From Candidatus Borrarchaeum weybense (GTDB taxonomy: Archaea; Asgardarchaeota; Sifarchaeia; Borrarchaeales; Borrarchaeaceae), in assembly GCA_019057385.1 (NCBI GenBank), contig JAHQJS010000006.1, forward strand, positions 452,938 through 516,937: DNA of 64,000 nucleotides, given 5' to 3'. The position numbers were made by a program, and so were the translations under genes. The notes beneath the pieces are model-generated. The model searched no databases and was not told the origin of the DNA. It saw only the letters and a program-made list of their open reading frames with translations. Below are positions 11,979 through 56,635 of this stretch, piece by piece (the first letter of the stretch is position 1; every line of letters begins with the position of its first letter).

Positions 11979-12102
11979 TGGCGGCTCCCGAGCGGATTTT
12001 CGTATTCATTTTTGAATTTTACAAATATATCGAACCGCAAGCCCTCATCGAGCTACCGGGTTTGAAGCCCGGTGCGCGAGACCACTCGTGCTTTCGGGAG
12101 CC
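11979..12102 (-). tRNA. selC: tRNA-Sec (anticodon UCA) with 32-nt BHB intron in the T-loop (intron 11997-12028)
   Basis: 9-bp acceptor GGCTCCCGA/TCGGGAGCC, G discriminator plus CCA, long D-stem, anticodon arm CCGGG-CTTCAAA-CCCGG, long variable arm, 4-bp T-stem GCGG/CCGC; BHB helix TTCG/CGAA with bulges ATA and AAT. Confidence 0.95.
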
Positions 12103-19280: not shown

Positions 19281-20642
19281 ATGCGACATAAACTTGTAAC
19301 TTTCCTAAAAGAGCATAAATATCCATTAATTGAAATCAAAGATCTTGCCATAAGAATTTTAAAATGGCTGGTATTAGCTAGTATTATTGGTTTTTCTGTT
19401 GGCCTAGTTACGGTACTTTTCCAAATTGGCTTAGTTGAAGCCATCTCAAATCTTACCTCGATAAAATTAATATGGCTACTTTTTTTTCTTCCTCCCTTAG
19501 GATTGTTTCTTAGTGGACTTTTGACAGGATACATCGCACCAGAAGCGAGAGGTCATGGAACAGATGCCATTATTGGGGCTTATCACGAACAGACAATAAC
19601 TCGACTTAGAGTTATCTTCGCAAAACTTATTGCGAGTATAATTACCATCGCTTTTGGTGGCTCAGCAGGACGCGAAGGTCCAGCGATCCAAATGGGGGGT
19701 GGAGTCAGTACGAATACAGGGAAAGCAATGGGTGTCAGTTTTGCTGATAGGAAAATCCTTACCCTATGTGGTATGAGCGCTGCGTTTTCAAGCGTTTTTA
19801 TTTCTCCTCTTTCAGGCGCGCTTTTCTCATGTGAAGTTGTGTTTAGAGATGACATCGAATATCATGGTTTACTCCCTGCAGCAGTTTCAAGTATTGTCGG
19901 TTTCCTTACGTATCAAGCGCTACTTCCAGAACAATTAAGTGAGGAATTGATCTTTGTGAGGATTCCAGCGTATACTTTTGAGCCATTCCATATTCTTTAT
20001 TTTTTGGTGTTAGCAGTATGCTGCGGCCTTGTAGGTTTTTTGCATATCAAAGTTTTATATTTTCTTGATGAACTATTTTTAAAGTGGGATCGTCCCGAAT
20101 ATATGAGAACTATGGTAGGTGGTGTATTAACAAGCCTTATAGCCTTAGCGTTGTGTATAGCAAGTATACTCCTCAATCTCGATTTTTCTGAGGGCTTTCG
20201 TATTTATGGCCTTGGCTGGAGTACCGTGAACTTACTAATAGACTCTCCATTTTTTTTCCCGCTCCTATTCTTGATATTCTTGTTAATTGCAAAAATGTTA
20301 GCCACAGCATCTACCATTGGTTCTGGTGGGTCAGGAGGTATTGTCTCTCCATCTCTATTTATCGGTGCGATTCTAGGTCTAATAATTGGTCTTATGTTGA
20401 ATTTTAATCCTCAGGTTATGGCTATTATAGGTGCTGTATGCCTTTTCGCTGCTATTGCACATATTCCCATCACTGGAGCCCTCCTGTGTGGTGAATTATT
20501 TAGTTTTCAATATGTGATTCCTGCTATCCTCGTAGGTGTTATAGGCTCATGGATTGCTTCAGAGGACAGCATTTACAGAAGTACTCTCATTAGCAGAAGA
20601 AAACCTTTAAAAGTCGCTCATAAATATCGCATAATCAAGTGA
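19281..20642 (+). CDS. CLC-family chloride channel/antiporter
   Basis: GHGTD, GSAGREGP, GGSGGIVSPSLFIGA. Confidence 0.92.
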   Translation: MRHKLVTFLKEHKYPLIEIKDLAIRILKWLVLASIIGFSVGLVTVLFQIGLVEAISNLTSIKLIWLLFFLPPLGLFLSGLLTGYIAPEARGHGTDAIIGAYHEQTITRLRVIFAKLIASIITIAFGGSAGREGPAIQMGGGVSTNTGKAMGVSFADRKILTLCGMSAAFSSVFISPLSGALFSCEVVFRDDIEYHGLLPAAVSSIVGFLTYQALLPEQLSEELIFVRIPAYTFEPFHILYFLVLAVCCGLVGFLHIKVLYFLDELFLKWDRPEYMRTMVGGVLTSLIALALCIASILLNLDFSEGFRIYGLGWSTVNLLIDSPFFFPLLFLIFLLIAKMLATASTIGSGGSGGIVSPSLFIGAILGLIIGLMLNFNPQVMAIIGAVCLFAAIAHIPITGALLCGELFSFQYVIPAILVGVIGSWIASEDSIYRSTLISRRKPLKVAHKYRIIK

Positions 20643-53781: not shown

Positions 53782-54453
53782 ATGCAGAGGAAAAAATGGG
53801 CCAAAGAAATCGCTGAGCGACTGATAAAAGAATACGGACAGAATAGAAAGGAATCTTTGGAACCTTTTGACGAACTAATCCGAACTATTCTATCTCAAAA
53901 CACTTCTGATGTGAACTCAGAACGAAGTTATAAACAACTAGCAGAGAAATTTTCGACCGTTAAGGCATTGGCTACTGCTTCTCTTAATGAAATTGAAGAA
54001 GCAATCAAAATAGGTGGTTTATATCGTCAGAAGGCAAAACGAATTAAGAGTATTGCTCAATTGGTCTTAGAGAAATATATATCCCTCTCTTTTTTGAAAG
54101 ATATGAATACTGATGAGGTTCGGAAATTTCTAAACAATATAGATGGGGTTGGGGCAAAAACAGCAGACTGTGTATTATTATTTTCTTTAAAGCGCCCGGT
54201 AATTCCAGTTGACACTCATGTTTGGAGAGTCTCAAAAAGATTAGGACTTGTTAAGGACAAGAAAAGCAAAAAAGTCACAAGAGAGATGGCAGGACGTGTT
54301 CTTGAGAAATTAATCGAATCAGATCTCCGATATGACTTTCATGTTGACTTAATTCTTCATGGGCGAAAGATTTGCAAAGCTCAAATCCCCTTGTGTAAAA
54401 AATGTATTTTGGAAGATTTGTGCGAAAAAAATGGAGTCAAAAACAAAGGATAA
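53782..54453 (+). CDS. nth: Endonuclease III (HhH-GPD, 4Fe-4S)
   Basis: LSQNTSD, GVGAKTA, PVDTHV, C-x6-C-x2-C-x5-C. Confidence 0.9.
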   Translation: MQRKKWAKEIAERLIKEYGQNRKESLEPFDELIRTILSQNTSDVNSERSYKQLAEKFSTVKALATASLNEIEEAIKIGGLYRQKAKRIKSIAQLVLEKYISLSFLKDMNTDEVRKFLNNIDGVGAKTADCVLLFSLKRPVIPVDTHVWRVSKRLGLVKDKKSKKVTREMAGRVLEKLIESDLRYDFHVDLILHGRKICKAQIPLCKKCILEDLCEKNGVKNKG

Positions 54454-54506
54454 GCGCAAAAGTTGTCATAACAAGAAAGAAGGTAAAAGGGGGCGGCCCT
54501 TTTTTT

Positions 54507-54543
54507 TCAGCTATACTACCCATGCGTTTCAGTATAGCCTCAT
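54507..54543 (-). ncRNA. Eukaryote-like SECIS element overlapping the stop codon of the PDO selenoprotein gene
   Basis: ATGA-GGCTATACTG-AAA-CGCATGGG-TAGTATAGC-TGA; 9-bp stem GCTATACTG/TAGTATAGC. Confidence 0.88.
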
Positions 54544-55220
54544 TCTTTACCTTCTGATAACAGTTTATTCACGAATTTGTCTAAGTTTGGTACGCCCACA
54601 AATGTCCTTTCTTCATTAATGACTGTAGCAGGGACACCGGACACGCCGTATTTTCTAGCGAGATCTTGATGTTCGTAGGCTTCGATTGTATCGGAGATGA
54701 CTTTTCCTTCGGACTCTATGGATATCTGGTTTGCTAGTAGTACAGAAGCTGGACAGAATGGTCAATCCCCCACAAGTGAGGAATAATCTTCTTCACATGT
54801 TGTAGGTGTGACCACTGTCCGAACTACCACTGGTTTCTGGATCTCTATCAGTTTTTCTTTTAAATGTCCTAAATCTGTGGTTTGAGTTGAAACCATTACA
54901 AGTGTTTGAATAAATGCCGCAAATTCTCCTCCGGCGGGTATGCCTGTGTATCGTATTCCAGTCAATTCTCCTCCTGATTCTATACGAATAGTGGGAGGGT
55001 ATTCAACTTCGTATTTTGCTGCTAACTCCTTTTGAGTGTCGAGCGAGATCTCTTCAACTGTAATTTTGTCAGTAAGTTCAGTGAGTGTCTTACAGATTTC
55101 AATGGTATCGGCACATGCTGGGCAGTGGATATCTGATGTGAAAACCTTTAGCGAAATAGGGTTTTCTAGTTTCTCTAATTCCCGTCTGAGTTGAGACCTT
55201 CCAGAAGGTGAGATCAACAA
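54540..55220 (-). CDS. Protein-disulfide oxidoreductase (double thioredoxin fold) selenoprotein with CPAC and UPFC active sites
   Basis: Frame continues 73 aa past TGA 54762-54764 (PFCPASVLLANQISIES..GVPATVIN..FVGVP), colinear with paralog 57003-57635 in which CPHC aligns to UPFC; SECIS downstream. Confidence 0.88.
54766..54801 (-). other. 36-nt in-frame insert, candidate BHB/BHL mRNA intron
   Basis: Absent from the paralog; flanked by GTGGTCA/TGACCAT helix, 3-nt bulges ACA and GAT, internal hairpin; removal gives VTPT-U-PFC. Confidence 0.5.
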
Positions 55221-55254
55221 AATTCTCTCCTTTATGGATTTATAATACTCTCTG

Positions 55255-56615
55255 CAAGAAGACCCCCAACTTGTTGGGGGGATGAATTGAGTATTTTACG
55301 TTTTTCACTTTCACAGTAGTGTCCCCCAGCTTTAAATAGGTTTTTGCGTATAGTAACTCTCGTGATATGAATTTTCAGGGGAACACAGGGATACGTATGA
55401 TGACACGGACGTACAAATATCGCTTGTATCCAACCACACAACAGGCAACTACGTTAACGCAATGGCTGACCACCTGTCGTTGGTTGTACAATACCTCGCT
55501 TGCTGAACGCCGAGATGCTTGGCATACTCACCAACACTCAGTCAGCTATTATGAGCAAGCCACCCAACTACAAGTCGTAAAAAAGACTAATCCGTTTTTG
55601 AAGGCGGTGCATTCTCAGGTGCTCCAAGATACACTTAGAAGACTGGATAAGACCTTCCAGAACTTTTTTAGGCGTCTTAAGAAGGGGGAAAAACCAGGTT
55701 ACCCACGCTTTAAAGGGCAATACCGATATGATTCCTTCACTTACCCGCAAAGTGGGTTCTCACTGGAAAAGAACAACAAGAAACTCCGGCTCTCGAAAAT
55801 TGGACGTATCACCATTACACTCCACCGTCCGATACCTACTGAAGGCGTGATCAAGACCTGTACCATTACACGCGATGTCGACCACTGGCATGCCTGTTTT
55901 GTAGTAGAACTGCCTGATCCCGCTCTTCACACTCAGAAAAGAGCCATAAAGAAGGCGATAGGGGTGGATGTCGGGCTTAAGAGTTTACTGACGTGTAATA
56001 ACGGAGATACCATCGCTAACCCCCGTTGGTTAAGACACTCGGAGAAGAAAGTAGCCAAAGAACAGAGAAGAAAAGATAGAAAGGTTAAGGGCTCAAATAA
56101 CCGTCACAAGCAGAACAGGAAGGTAGCACGGTTACACCGGAAGATACGTAACCAACGGAAGGACTTTCATCACAAGCTTAGTCGAACACTGGTCGATACT
56201 TATGACCTAATAGTGTATGAAAACTTAACGATTACCAACATGGTGAAGAACCATCATGTAGCCAAGTCGATTAGTGATGCGGGCTGGGGACAACTGATGT
56301 GTTTTACCGAGTACAAAGCGGAGGAAGCTGGTACTCTGGTAGAATATGTGAGTGCCTATAATACCACACAATTGTGTAGTAGGTGTGGGAGGATTGTGCC
56401 GAAAACACTGGCAACCCGCATCCACCGCTGTCCTTACTGTGGTCTTGATGTAGCACGAGATCATAACTCGGCCATCACGATTTTACACCGATCACGCAAC
56501 TATGTAGCATCACGATCATCATCAGGGCAGGAACTGCCCGTAGAGCCTGTTTGACATGTCCCGTTGGGGAATGGATGATTCAGGAAGCCAGCCTACTTGT
56601 AGGGTGGTAGTTCAC
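55255..56615 (+). mobile_element. IS200/IS605-family element carrying tnpB only (IS1341-like)
   Basis: Left end CAAGAAGACCCCCAACTTGTTGGGGGGATGAATTG; right end CAGGAAGCC..GGTAGTTCAC; no tnpA; exact left boundary uncertain by a few nt. Confidence 0.9.
55397..56554 (+). CDS. tnpB: RNA-guided endonuclease TnpB
   Basis: TYKYRLYP HTH, GYPRFK, RuvC D (GVDVG), E (YENL), Zn finger CSRC/CPYC, D (RDHNSA) all intact. Confidence 0.95.
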   Translation: MMTRTYKYRLYPTTQQATTLTQWLTTCRWLYNTSLAERRDAWHTHQHSVSYYEQATQLQVVKKTNPFLKAVHSQVLQDTLRRLDKTFQNFFRRLKKGEKPGYPRFKGQYRYDSFTYPQSGFSLEKNNKKLRLSKIGRITITLHRPIPTEGVIKTCTITRDVDHWHACFVVELPDPALHTQKRAIKKAIGVDVGLKSLLTCNNGDTIANPRWLRHSEKKVAKEQRRKDRKVKGSNNRHKQNRKVARLHRKIRNQRKDFHHKLSRTLVDTYDLIVYENLTITNMVKNHHVAKSISDAGWGQLMCFTEYKAEEAGTLVEYVSAYNTTQLCSRCGRIVPKTLATRIHRCPYCGLDVARDHNSAITILHRSRNYVASRSSSGQELPVEPV

Positions 56616-56635
56616 GTTAGTGACTTGAACATCAT
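56520..56635 (+). ncRNA. Putative TnpB reRNA/omegaRNA scaffold plus guide (guide starts 56616, GTTAGTGACTTGAACA)
   Basis: GGGCAGGAACTGCCC hairpin overlapping tnpB 3' end through the right-end hairpin; boundaries approximate. Confidence 0.65.

What the first reader, a model, noticed from the sequence alone, without database searches (positions are those of the whole stretch)
54758..54815. Candidate BHB-type mRNA intron directly in front of a selenocysteine codon
Seen: relative to its paralog (VTSR-CPHC) and the usual PDO motif VTPT-CPxC, this gene has 12 extra codons before the TGA (VTPT-TCEEDYSSLVGD-U-PFC). The mRNA can fold as an exon helix GUGGUCA/UGACCAU that sequesters the UGA, a 3-nt bulge GAU, a central helix ACCU/GGGG, a 3-nt bulge ACA, and an inner hairpin ACAUGUGAAGAA/UUCCUCACUUGU. 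Established: archaeal EndA cuts BHB motifs between bulge nt 2 and 3, RtcB ligates, and the crenarchaeal cbf5 mRNA intron is the classic protein-coding example. Applying that rule removes exactly 36 nt (54766-54801) and gives CCU-ACU-UGA-CCA-UUC-UGU = P-T-U-P-F-C, the canonical spacing. The bulges (ACA/GAU) resemble those of the tRNA-Sec intron in this window (AUA/AAU). Inference: splicing gates maturation of a selenoenzyme active site, so both tRNA-Sec and a selenoprotein mRNA would depend on the same endonuclease. Caveats: the central helix has an A.G mismatch and an extra unpaired C (relaxed BHL-type motif), and the insert resembles the nearby IS left end (AAGAAGA..CC.C.ACTTGT.GGGGGAT), so it may be IS-derived, spliced or not.
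Basis: partly seen in the sequence, partly recalled or inferred. Interest (0 to 1): 0.92.

Follow-up and report, generated by a model that had tools for sequence, protein, structure and literature searches.

The report
Mini-intron beside a selenocysteine codon
A 36-base hairpin one base upstream of the selenocysteine codon of a redox enzyme gene in an Asgard archaeon is very probably a tRNA-type intron cut out of the messenger RNA, one of several such mRNA introns in this genome.

Summary
The minus-strand gene 54540-55217 encodes a two-thioredoxin-fold (PDO / AhpF-N-like) selenoprotein. Compared with nine orthologous alleles it carries exactly 36 extra bases (54766-54801), one base upstream of the conserved UGA.

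The intron reading is supported (confidence about 0.85):
- **Geometry.** The insert has the same relaxed bulge-helix-bulge geometry as a 30-nt, stop-containing intron in secY of this genome: outer helix, one extra C, 4-position central helix, two 3-nt bulges.
- **Phyletic pattern.** The secY intron is also precisely absent from the same two sister species.
- **Other mRNA introns.** I confirmed interruptions by stop codons or frame shifts in RFC-S, rrp41 and TBP.
- **Enzymes.** The genome encodes a catalytic and a His-less EndA paralogue, plus RtcB.
- **Joined form.** Contigs of two runs labelled metatranscriptomic, from two haplotypes, skip exactly 54766-54801 and give the predicted junction CACACCTAC|TTGACCATTC. 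No DNA-derived allele of this clade lacks the insert.

Open points:
- The run-search tool guesses those two libraries are "probably DNA".
- One RNA-Seq contig keeps the insert.
- The insert is in frame and has no stop codon.
- "Gating" of Sec-enzyme maturation is untested, and an IS origin is not supported.

First readers of this scan flagged the same kind of intron in other windows of this genome.

The parts
54540..55217 (-). Gene for a two-thioredoxin-fold (PDO / AhpF N-terminal-domain-like) selenoprotein. It has an N-terminal CPAC site and a C-terminal U-PFC site. The likely start is the TTG at 55217, which aligns with the ATG of the orthologues. The stop is TGA at 54540-54542.
   Evidence: ORF and translation; Pfam Thioredoxin_3 and Thioredoxin; orthologue alignments; JGI name 'AhpF'; the family is reported as a Sifarchaeia/Borrarchaeales selenoprotein in PMC11227280.
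54766..54801 (-). The 36-nt intron: AACAUGUGAAGAAGAUUAUUCCUCACUUGUGGGGGA in RNA sense.
   Evidence: Precisely absent from nine orthologous alleles. Skipped exactly in contigs of runs X25 and X26, with no microhomology at the joint. Recovered by the blind geometry scan. Unique in the genome by sequence.
54762..54764 (-). Selenocysteine codon UGA. It starts one base after the 3' splice site and lies inside the exon-exon (outer) helix.
   Evidence: TGA is conserved at this position in all orthologues with the frame open beyond it. It aligns with the first Cys of CPHC in the paralogue.
54809..54820 (-). 5' strand of the outer (exon-exon) helix, GGACAGUGGUCA. Base C at 54808 is the extra unpaired base.
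   Evidence: Fold. The synonymous positions that create this complementarity are specific to intron-bearing alleles.
54751..54764 (-). 3' strand of the outer helix, UGACCA-UU-CUGUCC. It includes the UGA.
   Evidence: Fold.
54804..54807 (-). 5' strand of the central helix, ACCU (exon). It pairs with GGGG at 54768-54771 (intron): one A.G, two C-G and one U.G.
   Evidence: The run of five G allows alternative registers.
54801..54803 (-). 5' bulge ACA, cut AC|A. The last exon base is 54802.
   Evidence: Junction. The RFC-S intron of this genome has the same AC|A bulge.
54765..54767 (-). 3' bulge GAU, cut GA|U. The first base of exon 2 is 54765.
   Evidence: Junction.
54772..54800 (-). Inner intron hairpin, ACAUGUGAAGAA / UUCCUCACUUGU. 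In L035, L044 and L042 the U.U mismatch is an A-U pair and the loop-closing pair is lost.
54505..54543 (-). SECIS-like hairpin in the 3' UTR. Its AUGA contains the stop codon's UGA. It has an 8-bp stem, an A-rich apical loop and a 3' (U)GA.
   Evidence: Conserved in nine alleles, with one compensated pair and several G-U changes. The AUGA_GA core of Asgard eSECIS-like elements is described in PMC11227280.
11979..12102 (-). tRNA-Sec gene (anticodon UCA). By my hand reading it carries an intron of about 32 nt in the T-loop (about 11997-12028), with central helix UUCG/CGAA and bulges AU|A and AA|U.
   Evidence: Rfam tRNA-Sec match of 23.6 bits, truncated and below threshold. Sequence read by eye. 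The boundaries are inferred, not tested.

Best explanation
The 36 bases at 54766-54801 are an archaeal bulge-helix-bulge (tRNA-type) intron inside the mRNA of a PDO / AhpF-N-like selenoprotein.

Proposed mechanism:
- The pre-mRNA folds so that the two exon flanks pair. This outer helix contains the UGA.
- A 4-position central helix (ACCU/GGGG) and an intron hairpin present two 3-nt bulges, ACA and GAU.
- The splicing endonuclease cuts after the second base of each bulge. In this genome EndA is most likely a two-subunit (alpha-beta)2 enzyme.
- RtcB joins the exons to CCU-ACU-UGA-CCA-UUC-UGU (P-T-U-P-F-C), the sequence that intron-less orthologues encode directly.
- The UGA is then read as selenocysteine with the help of a SECIS-like hairpin that overlaps the stop codon.

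Shown here: the exact insert, its fold, its identity of geometry with obligatory introns of the same genome, the enzymes, and molecules with the exact joined sequence.

Inferred: that those molecules are RNA, that EndA and RtcB are the enzymes acting here, and how efficient splicing is.

The intron is one member of a genome-wide set of 30-40-nt mRNA introns. It has probably spread between alleles by recombination together with its flanking exon sequence.
For: 1. **Exact presence/absence.** Nine orthologous alleles lack precisely these 36 nt.
2. **Positive controls in the same genome.**
   - secY carries a 30-nt insert with an in-frame TAG inside DPF|FWMR. Its architecture is identical: outer helix, extra C, CCGU/GCGG, bulges UU|A and AA|U.
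   - That insert is present in G000, G001 and G002 and precisely absent in G003 and G004. G003 and G004 are the same species that lack the PDO insert.
   - RFC-S GPPGT[..**..]GKT is interrupted by 30 nt with two stops.
   - rrp41 has a 31-nt frame-shifting insert.
   - TBP is split over three frames by inserts, including after both KLVCT motifs.
3. **Blind scan.** One geometry rule, with a chance rate of about 3e-5 per site and length, returns both the secY intron and this unit with the right boundaries.
4. **Joined molecules.** Contigs in X25 (depth 13.3) and X26 (depth 3.7) have library source METATRANSCRIPTOMIC. They represent two haplotypes 96-97% identical to the window.
   - They skip exactly 54766-54801 with zero ambiguity.
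   - They keep the clade-specific flanks, and X26 keeps the 12-nt ESGG insertion.
5. **No DNA-derived empty allele.** Every DNA-derived allele with these flanks has the insert: seven cluster members plus L044 and L042. No insert-less allele of this clade turned up in the protein collection.
6. **Flank co-variation.** The synonymous sites of the 5' flank (CGG ACA GUG GUC) build a 12-bp exon-exon helix only in insert-bearing alleles.
7. **Accessible fold.** BHB-compatible folds lie 1.5-1.9 kcal/mol above the minimum, or are the minimum in the L035 type.
8. **Enzymes and lineage.**
   - The genome has an EndA paralogue with Y/H/K and one without the His, and RtcB.
   - Many tRNA genes carry non-canonical introns.
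Against: - The run-search tool labels X25 and X26 'RNA? (probably DNA)' because their strategy field says WGS. If they are DNA, the joined contigs show only an intron-less allele.
- A contig of a true RNA-Seq run (X27, depth 2, L035-like) retains 34 of the 36 nt. Unspliced RNA or carried-over DNA therefore exists.
- The insert is a multiple of three with no stop codon. This is required of a translated insertion and expected by chance for only about one intron in five.
- The motif is not a strict hBHBh': there is an A.G in the central helix and one extra C.
- Its minimum-energy fold in this allele pairs the ACA bulge.
- Insert-bearing alleles show only two variable positions and no compensatory pair.
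Confidence: 0.85

Rival explanations
1. The 36 nt are an ordinary in-frame insertion that is translated as a 12-residue loop (TCEEDYSSLVGD) in front of the Sec. The joined contigs come from strains, or DNA libraries, that never had the insertion.
For: - The insert is in frame and stop-free in both variants.
- The tool guesses X25 and X26 are DNA.
- The X27 RNA-Seq contig retains the insert.
- Alleles of this gene are mosaic, so insert-less relatives are plausible.
Against: - It would be a coincidence of about 1e-4 that the indel boundaries fall exactly on the cut sites of a BHB-like geometry shared with the obligatory secY intron.
- Flank-specific synonymous changes build the exon helix.
- No DNA-derived allele of this clade lacks the insert.
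- The insertion sits directly at the active-site U-x-x-C, between the beta strand and the catalytic residue.
Confidence: 0.1
2. The intron is real but optional. Because it is in frame and open, both spliced and unspliced mRNAs are translated, giving two isoforms of the selenoprotein. This overlaps the main explanation rather than excluding it.
For: - Both the joined form and the insert-retaining form occur in libraries labelled as RNA, though in different strains and studies.
- The insert is open in both variants.
- The first TBP insert (30 nt) is also in frame and open.
Against: - An open frame of 12 codons is expected by chance in roughly one in five introns.
- The two changes between variants are both non-synonymous, so there is no sign of protein-level constraint.
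- The X27 contig has depth 2 and may be DNA carry-over.
Confidence: 0.2
3. The insert is a remnant of the left end of the neighbouring IS200/IS605-type element, and the gene is a decaying pseudogene.
For: Local similarity ACTTGT..GGGGGAT to the IS left end at about 55255-55285. The IS family has 50 or more copies in the genome.
Against: - The similarity is reached by 56 of 2000 shuffles.
- blastn-short finds no hit of the insert to any of the 50 or more IS ends.
- The gene is intact, with a conserved frame, SECIS-like element and Sec codon, in several diverged insert-bearing alleles.
Confidence: 0.02

Closest known systems
BHB intron in the cbf5 pre-mRNA of Crenarchaeota (Watanabe 2002; Yokobori 2009, PMC2738675)
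   Same: - A short intron in a protein-coding mRNA with a bulge-helix-bulge-type motif.
- Presumed EndA cleavage and ligation.
- Gained and lost among close relatives.
- Found in lineages with a two-subunit EndA.
   Different: - The host is an Asgard archaeon (Sifarchaeia/Borrarchaeaceae relatives), not a crenarchaeote.
- The gene is a selenoprotein, and the 3' splice site lies one base before the UGA.
- The intron is in frame and open.
- It is one of several mRNA introns in this genome rather than a lone case.
- The motif has an extra unpaired C and an A.G.
Non-canonical tRNA and rRNA BHB/BHL introns of archaea with (alpha-beta)2 or epsilon2 EndA (PMC5829648; PMC12397907; preprint 10.64898/2026.10.13.758758)
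   Same: - Same size range and same bulge rule.
- Same tolerance of relaxed motifs.
- The same genome holds many such introns, including one in its tRNA-Sec.
   Different: The substrate is an mRNA, so splicing must precede or compete with translation. The exon helix is made of coding sequence and appears to constrain synonymous sites.
Unconventional cytoplasmic splicing of HAC1/XBP1 mRNA (IRE1 endonuclease plus tRNA ligase/RtcB). Stated from my own knowledge.
   Same: A very short mRNA intron (26 nt in XBP1) is removed by a stem-loop-specific endonuclease and a tRNA-type ligase, and this changes the protein made.
   Different: - The endonuclease (IRE1) and the twin-hairpin motif are different.
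- That system is stress-regulated and frame-shifting.
- No regulation has been shown here, and the frame is kept.
AhpF N-terminal-domain-like selenoproteins of Sifarchaeia/Borrarchaeales (Huang et al. 2024, PMC11227280)
   Same: Same protein family and same lineage. Sec replaces the first Cys of the second CxxC. The 3' element is eSECIS-like with an AUGA_GA core.
   Different: That paper does not mention introns: the word does not occur in its text. The allele here carries one next to the Sec codon.

Membership tests
Archaeal BHB (EndA/RtcB-type) intron | [quoted passage not shown] | tested here: inconclusive
   Both 3-nt bulges (ACA, GAU) and both flanking helices are present. The central helix has three pairs plus an A.G, and one extra C offsets the outer helix. 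The strict form is not met. The relaxed (BHL-like) form is met.
Archaeal BHB (EndA/RtcB-type) intron | Same geometry as introns that must be spliced in the same organism | tested here: met
   The stop-containing 30-nt secY intron has the same architecture: outer helix, extra C, 4-bp helix, 3-nt bulges. The same blind rule recovers it. The RFC-S intron has the same AC|A bulge and a G.A at the same helix position.
Archaeal BHB (EndA/RtcB-type) intron | Cutting after the second base of each bulge restores the conserved uninterrupted sequence | tested here: met
   The junction CCUAC|UUGACC equals the sequence of intron-less orthologues and of the joined contigs.
Archaeal BHB (EndA/RtcB-type) intron | The host encodes the splicing endonuclease (a broad-specificity architecture for relaxed motifs) and an RNA ligase | tested here: met
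   There are two PF01974 paralogues: one with Tyr/His/Lys and one lacking the His. RtcB scores 582 bits. The subunit architecture is inferred from sequence only.
Archaeal BHB (EndA/RtcB-type) intron | Spliced RNA observed while the DNA keeps the intron | tested here: inconclusive
   The joined form is seen in two runs whose source field says METATRANSCRIPTOMIC but whose strategy field says WGS. The tool guesses DNA.
Archaeal BHB (EndA/RtcB-type) intron | Excised intron as a circle or linear piece with a 2',3'-cyclic phosphate; cleavage by purified EndA | not testable with these tools
   Needs small-RNA or circRNA reads, or biochemistry.
Selenoprotein gene (archaeal/Asgard type) | In-frame UGA at a catalytic Cys position, conserved, with the frame open downstream | tested here: met
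Selenoprotein gene (archaeal/Asgard type) | SECIS element in the 3' UTR | tested here: met
   A conserved 8-bp hairpin is flanked by AUGA and (U)GA, with one compensated pair and four pairs with one-sided changes to or from G-U. Identity with the published eSECIS-like class is judged by motif only.
IS200/IS605 end-derived element | Significant sequence similarity to the IS left end or its many genomic copies | tested here: not met
   Local alignment score is 19, against shuffles of 14 +/- 2; 56 of 2000 shuffles reach it. There are no blastn-short hits to IS ends.

The most novel reading that the evidence does not exclude
Splicing state and selenocysteine decoding are coupled. The intron is in frame and open, and the UGA lies inside the exon-exon helix that the endonuclease needs. 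The cell could therefore make two isoforms, with or without a 12-residue loop at the active site. Alternatively, it could hold back Sec decoding until EndA/RtcB have acted. The same enzyme pair also matures the intron-bearing tRNA-Sec. This would be a form of regulated alternative mRNA splicing in an Asgard archaeon.
Probability: 0.12. Interest if true: 0.9.

Novelty: new member of a known kind. Interest (0 to 1): 0.75.

Why it matters
Splicing of protein-coding mRNAs by the tRNA endonuclease has so far been documented essentially for one gene, cbf5, in Crenarchaeota. My four literature searches found no report of it in Asgard archaea.

This case has three useful properties:
- It has exact intron-less orthologues and molecules carrying the predicted junction.
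- It sits among at least four other interrupted mRNAs that I verified in the same genome: secY, RFC-S, rrp41 and TBP.

Consequences:
- It makes testable how an archaeon with coupled transcription and translation copes with mRNA introns.
- Gene callers will mis-annotate such genes.
- Selenoprotein surveys that ignore introns will mis-read active sites.

The polymorphism between strains, and the mosaic allele in which the intron travels with about 110 nt of flanking exon, give a handle on how these introns spread.

Tried and rejected
- **tRNA and Rfam scans.** ARAGORN and Rfam at gathering thresholds found no tRNA in the window. The tRNA-Sec appeared only as a sub-threshold Rfam hit through the genome search and by eye.
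- **Repeat search.** The insert has no other copy in the genome by blastn-short, so it is not a sequence-defined repeat or MITE.
- **IS origin.** The left-end similarity is not significant.
- **Partial joined proteins.** A search for short partial proteins of the joined form found nothing, so I could not trace the joined contigs to named samples.
- **Covariation in the intron.** Only two variable positions exist among four insert-bearing alleles. One repairs a U.U mismatch, the other opens the loop-closing pair, and there is no compensatory pair.
- **Synonymous versus non-synonymous changes.** There are 0 synonymous and 2 non-synonymous changes in the insert, against 20 and 12 in the exons. 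This is uninformative.
- **Strict scanner.** My first strict BHB scanner missed the RFC-S and rrp41 introns and gave many false hits on tRNA loci. A first genome-wide scan timed out and was rewritten.
- **Mis-aimed query.** One secY comparison used the wrong end of the gene and was repeated.
- **Gaps in read coverage.** Parts of the laid stretch have no contig cover in X25, X26, X19 and X27. These are not evidence of anything.
- **Structure prediction.** I did not model the unspliced protein, because a low-confidence loop would not decide between the readings.

Full report
**What is there**

The minus strand of 54540-55217 encodes a protein of two thioredoxin folds (Pfam Thioredoxin_3 and Thioredoxin). 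It has CPAC in the first unit and U-PFC in the second, the U being TGA at 54762-54764. A paralogue 2 kb away reads CPHC at the same place.

The named relatives are Candidatus Sifarchaeum and Candidatus Borrarchaeum, which are Asgard archaea. JGI calls homologues 'AhpF'. An AhpF-N-terminal-domain-like selenoprotein has been reported from exactly this lineage (PMC11227280).

The Sec reading is sound:
- The TGA and the frame beyond it are conserved in all orthologues.
- The 3' UTR begins with a conserved hairpin whose AUGA includes the stop codon. It has an (U)GA on the 3' side, one compensated pair and several G-U changes.
- A tRNA-Sec gene (anticodon loop CUUCAAA) lies at 11979-12102 and itself carries a T-loop insert.

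**The observation**

Relative to nine orthologous alleles (G003/L033, G004/L034, L036-L039, L043), the window has exactly 36 extra bases, 54766-54801. The orthologues read CC(A/T)A(C/A)|(T/C)TGACC.

The insert is present in three further, independent DNA assemblies: L035 from JGI, L044 from JGI and L042 from a Logan assembly. It also occurs in all seven members of the window's 90% protein cluster. It is therefore neither an assembly artefact nor private to one MAG. It has no second copy in the genome.

The 91-nt region folds at -34.9 kcal/mol, z = -3.5. Its BHB-compatible fold lies 1.9 kcal/mol above the minimum in this allele. In the commoner allele (U to A at the U.U mismatch) the minimum-energy fold itself shows the ACA bulge.

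**What turned the case: the rest of the genome**

Notes of other first readers claimed tRNA-type introns in several mRNAs of this genome. I checked four of them myself.
- RFC small subunit reads GPPGT[RSLF**NLPK]GKT. That is 30 nt with two stops inside the Walker A motif. Cutting GGGGAC|A...AAA|AGGU restores GPPGTGKT.
- rrp41 is split between two frames by 31 nt. The helices are well formed (UCUUUC/GAAAGA, CAGU/GCUG, bulges AG|A and AA|A), and splicing gives FSV|DERKSPAPSRRE.
- secY reads DPF[RELSLR*LAE]FWMR, a 30-nt insert with a TAG.
- TBP is spread over three frames, with inserts after both KLVCT motifs. The first of these is 30 nt, in frame and open.

These are essential genes, so these inserts must be removed from the RNA.

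The secY intron has the same unusual architecture as the PDO insert: outer helix, one extra C on the 5' strand, 4-bp central helix, then 3-nt bulges on both strands.

I encoded that geometry as a blind rule: at least three central pairs, at least three inner pairs, and at least six outer pairs with a 0- or 1-nt offset. Its chance rate is about 3e-5 per site and length, with 12,802 hits in the real genome against 10,567 in the shuffled one. This rule returns the secY intron and the PDO unit, each with exactly the right length and boundaries.

The secY intron is present in G000, G001 and G002 and precisely absent from G003 and G004. Those are the two species that also lack the PDO insert. Its 5' exon flank likewise differs at synonymous sites between intron-bearing and intron-less alleles.

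**Enzymes**

The genome has two EndA paralogues. One carries the Tyr/His/Lys residues. The other lacks the His, as structural beta subunits do. The genome also has RtcB.

[quoted passage not shown] Many tRNA genes here carry introns at non-canonical positions. [quoted passage not shown]

**Molecules with the joined sequence**

I laid four runs on 54450-55300.
- X25 (depth 13.3) and X26 (depth 3.7) each hold a contig that skips exactly 54766-54801, with no base shared between the two sides of the joint. Their sequence across the joint is the predicted ...CACACCTAC|TTGACCATTC....
- The two contigs are different haplotypes (they differ at 54843, 54851 and 54897). Both are 96-97% identical to the window, both keep the clade-specific flank, and X26 keeps the clade-specific 12-nt ESGG insertion.
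- Among DNA-derived sequences, every allele with this flank has the insert. No insert-less allele of this clade appeared in a search of the large protein collection.
- The caveat: these libraries have source METATRANSCRIPTOMIC but strategy WGS, and the tool guesses 'probably DNA'.
- A 151-nt contig of a true RNA-Seq run (X27, depth 2, L035-like) retains 34 of the 36 nt. This is either unspliced RNA or DNA carry-over.

**Population picture**

L042 is mosaic. Over most of the gene it resembles the intron-less clade. Over about 110 nt around the insert it is nearly identical to L044 (39/40, 40/40 and 35/40 matches in successive 40-column windows). About 16 nt past the insert it switches back. L043 is mosaic the other way.

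The intron has thus moved between diverged alleles together with its exon flank, by recombination. The 5' flank (CGG ACA GUG GUC) forms a 12-bp exon-exon helix only in insert-bearing alleles.

**Weighing**

Against the intron reading:
- the insert is in frame and open;
- the motif is relaxed;
- there is no compensatory change in the intron;
- the RNA nature of X25 and X26 is unproven;
- one RNA-Seq contig retains the insert.

For it:
- the indel boundaries coincide with the cut sites of a geometry shared with an obligatory intron of the same genome, a coincidence of order 1e-4 otherwise;
- the phyletic pattern matches that of the secY intron;
- the flanks co-vary with the insert;
- the enzymes are present;
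- the joined form occurs in two haplotypes and has no DNA-derived counterpart.

I put the intron at about 0.85 and a purely translated insertion at about 0.10.

That splicing 'gates' Sec-enzyme maturation is an inference without evidence. With several introns in housekeeping mRNAs, the position next to UGA may be chance. The IS-derived origin is not supported.

**Novelty**

The mechanism class is known from cbf5 in Crenarchaeota (PMC2738675). The selenoprotein family is known (PMC11227280), but the word 'intron' does not occur in that paper's text. My literature searches found no report of BHB introns in Asgard mRNAs. The library is incomplete, so this is absence of evidence only.

I file it as a new member of a known kind. 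It lies in a new lineage and a new gene, and it is part of a genome-wide set that first readers of this scan had already flagged in other windows.

Noticed in passing
G000 C5:281845-281874 (-), outside the window: secY mRNA carries a 30-nt intron with an in-frame TAG inside DPF|FWMR. Its architecture matches the PDO intron. It is present in G000, G001 and G002 and precisely absent in G003 and G004. Differences among the three intron-bearing genomes fall in or at the edge of the apical loop, not in the main stems.
   Followed up: yes
G000 C3:113720-113776 (-) and C3:140650-140700 (+), outside the window: The RFC small-subunit Walker A motif is split by 30 nt with two stop codons. rrp41 is split by a 31-nt frame-shifting insert with a well-formed BHB.
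   Followed up: yes
G000 C6, about 542600-543300 (+), 25.7 kb beyond the window end: The TBP gene is spread over three reading frames, with inserts after both KLVCT motifs. The first insert is 30 nt, in frame and open, like the PDO intron. A further frame break lies between the two motifs. I did not fold or map the boundaries.
   Followed up: partly
window 11979-12102 (-): tRNA-Sec gene (anticodon UCA) with an insert of about 32 nt in the T-loop (about 11997-12028). ARAGORN and Rfam at gathering score miss it. Sec decoding here therefore depends on the splicing endonuclease in any case.
   Followed up: partly
window 54505-54543 (-): The SECIS-like hairpin starts inside the stop codon: the AUGA of the kink-turn-like core contains the terminating UGA. 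The same UGA triplet would thus serve as stop and as part of the Sec-insertion signal.
   Followed up: partly
window 55230-56620 (+): An IS200/IS605-type element with a TnpB-like ORF (55367-56602) lies between the two PDO paralogues. Read by the standard code, this ORF contains two in-frame TGA near its 3' end. Its left end has 50 or more diverged copies across the genome.
   Followed up: partly
L042 (Logan contig) and L043 (JGI contig): Alleles of this selenoprotein gene are mosaics of the intron-bearing and intron-less clades. In L042 only about 110 nt around the intron are of the intron-bearing type. This suggests transfer of the intron with co-conversion of its flanks.
   Followed up: yes
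window 54962-54981 (-): A second, 12-nt in-frame insertion (ESGG in IRIESGGELTG) is specific to the same clade. The X26 contig retains it while skipping the 36 nt, so it behaves as ordinary coding sequence.
   Followed up: partly
G000 contig C1: C1 (GC 0.39, against 0.36-0.38 elsewhere) holds tight clusters of intron-less tRNA genes, for example 19435-19896, and a second RtcB split in two. It may be the source of the 7% contamination estimate, or a different replicon.
   Followed up: no
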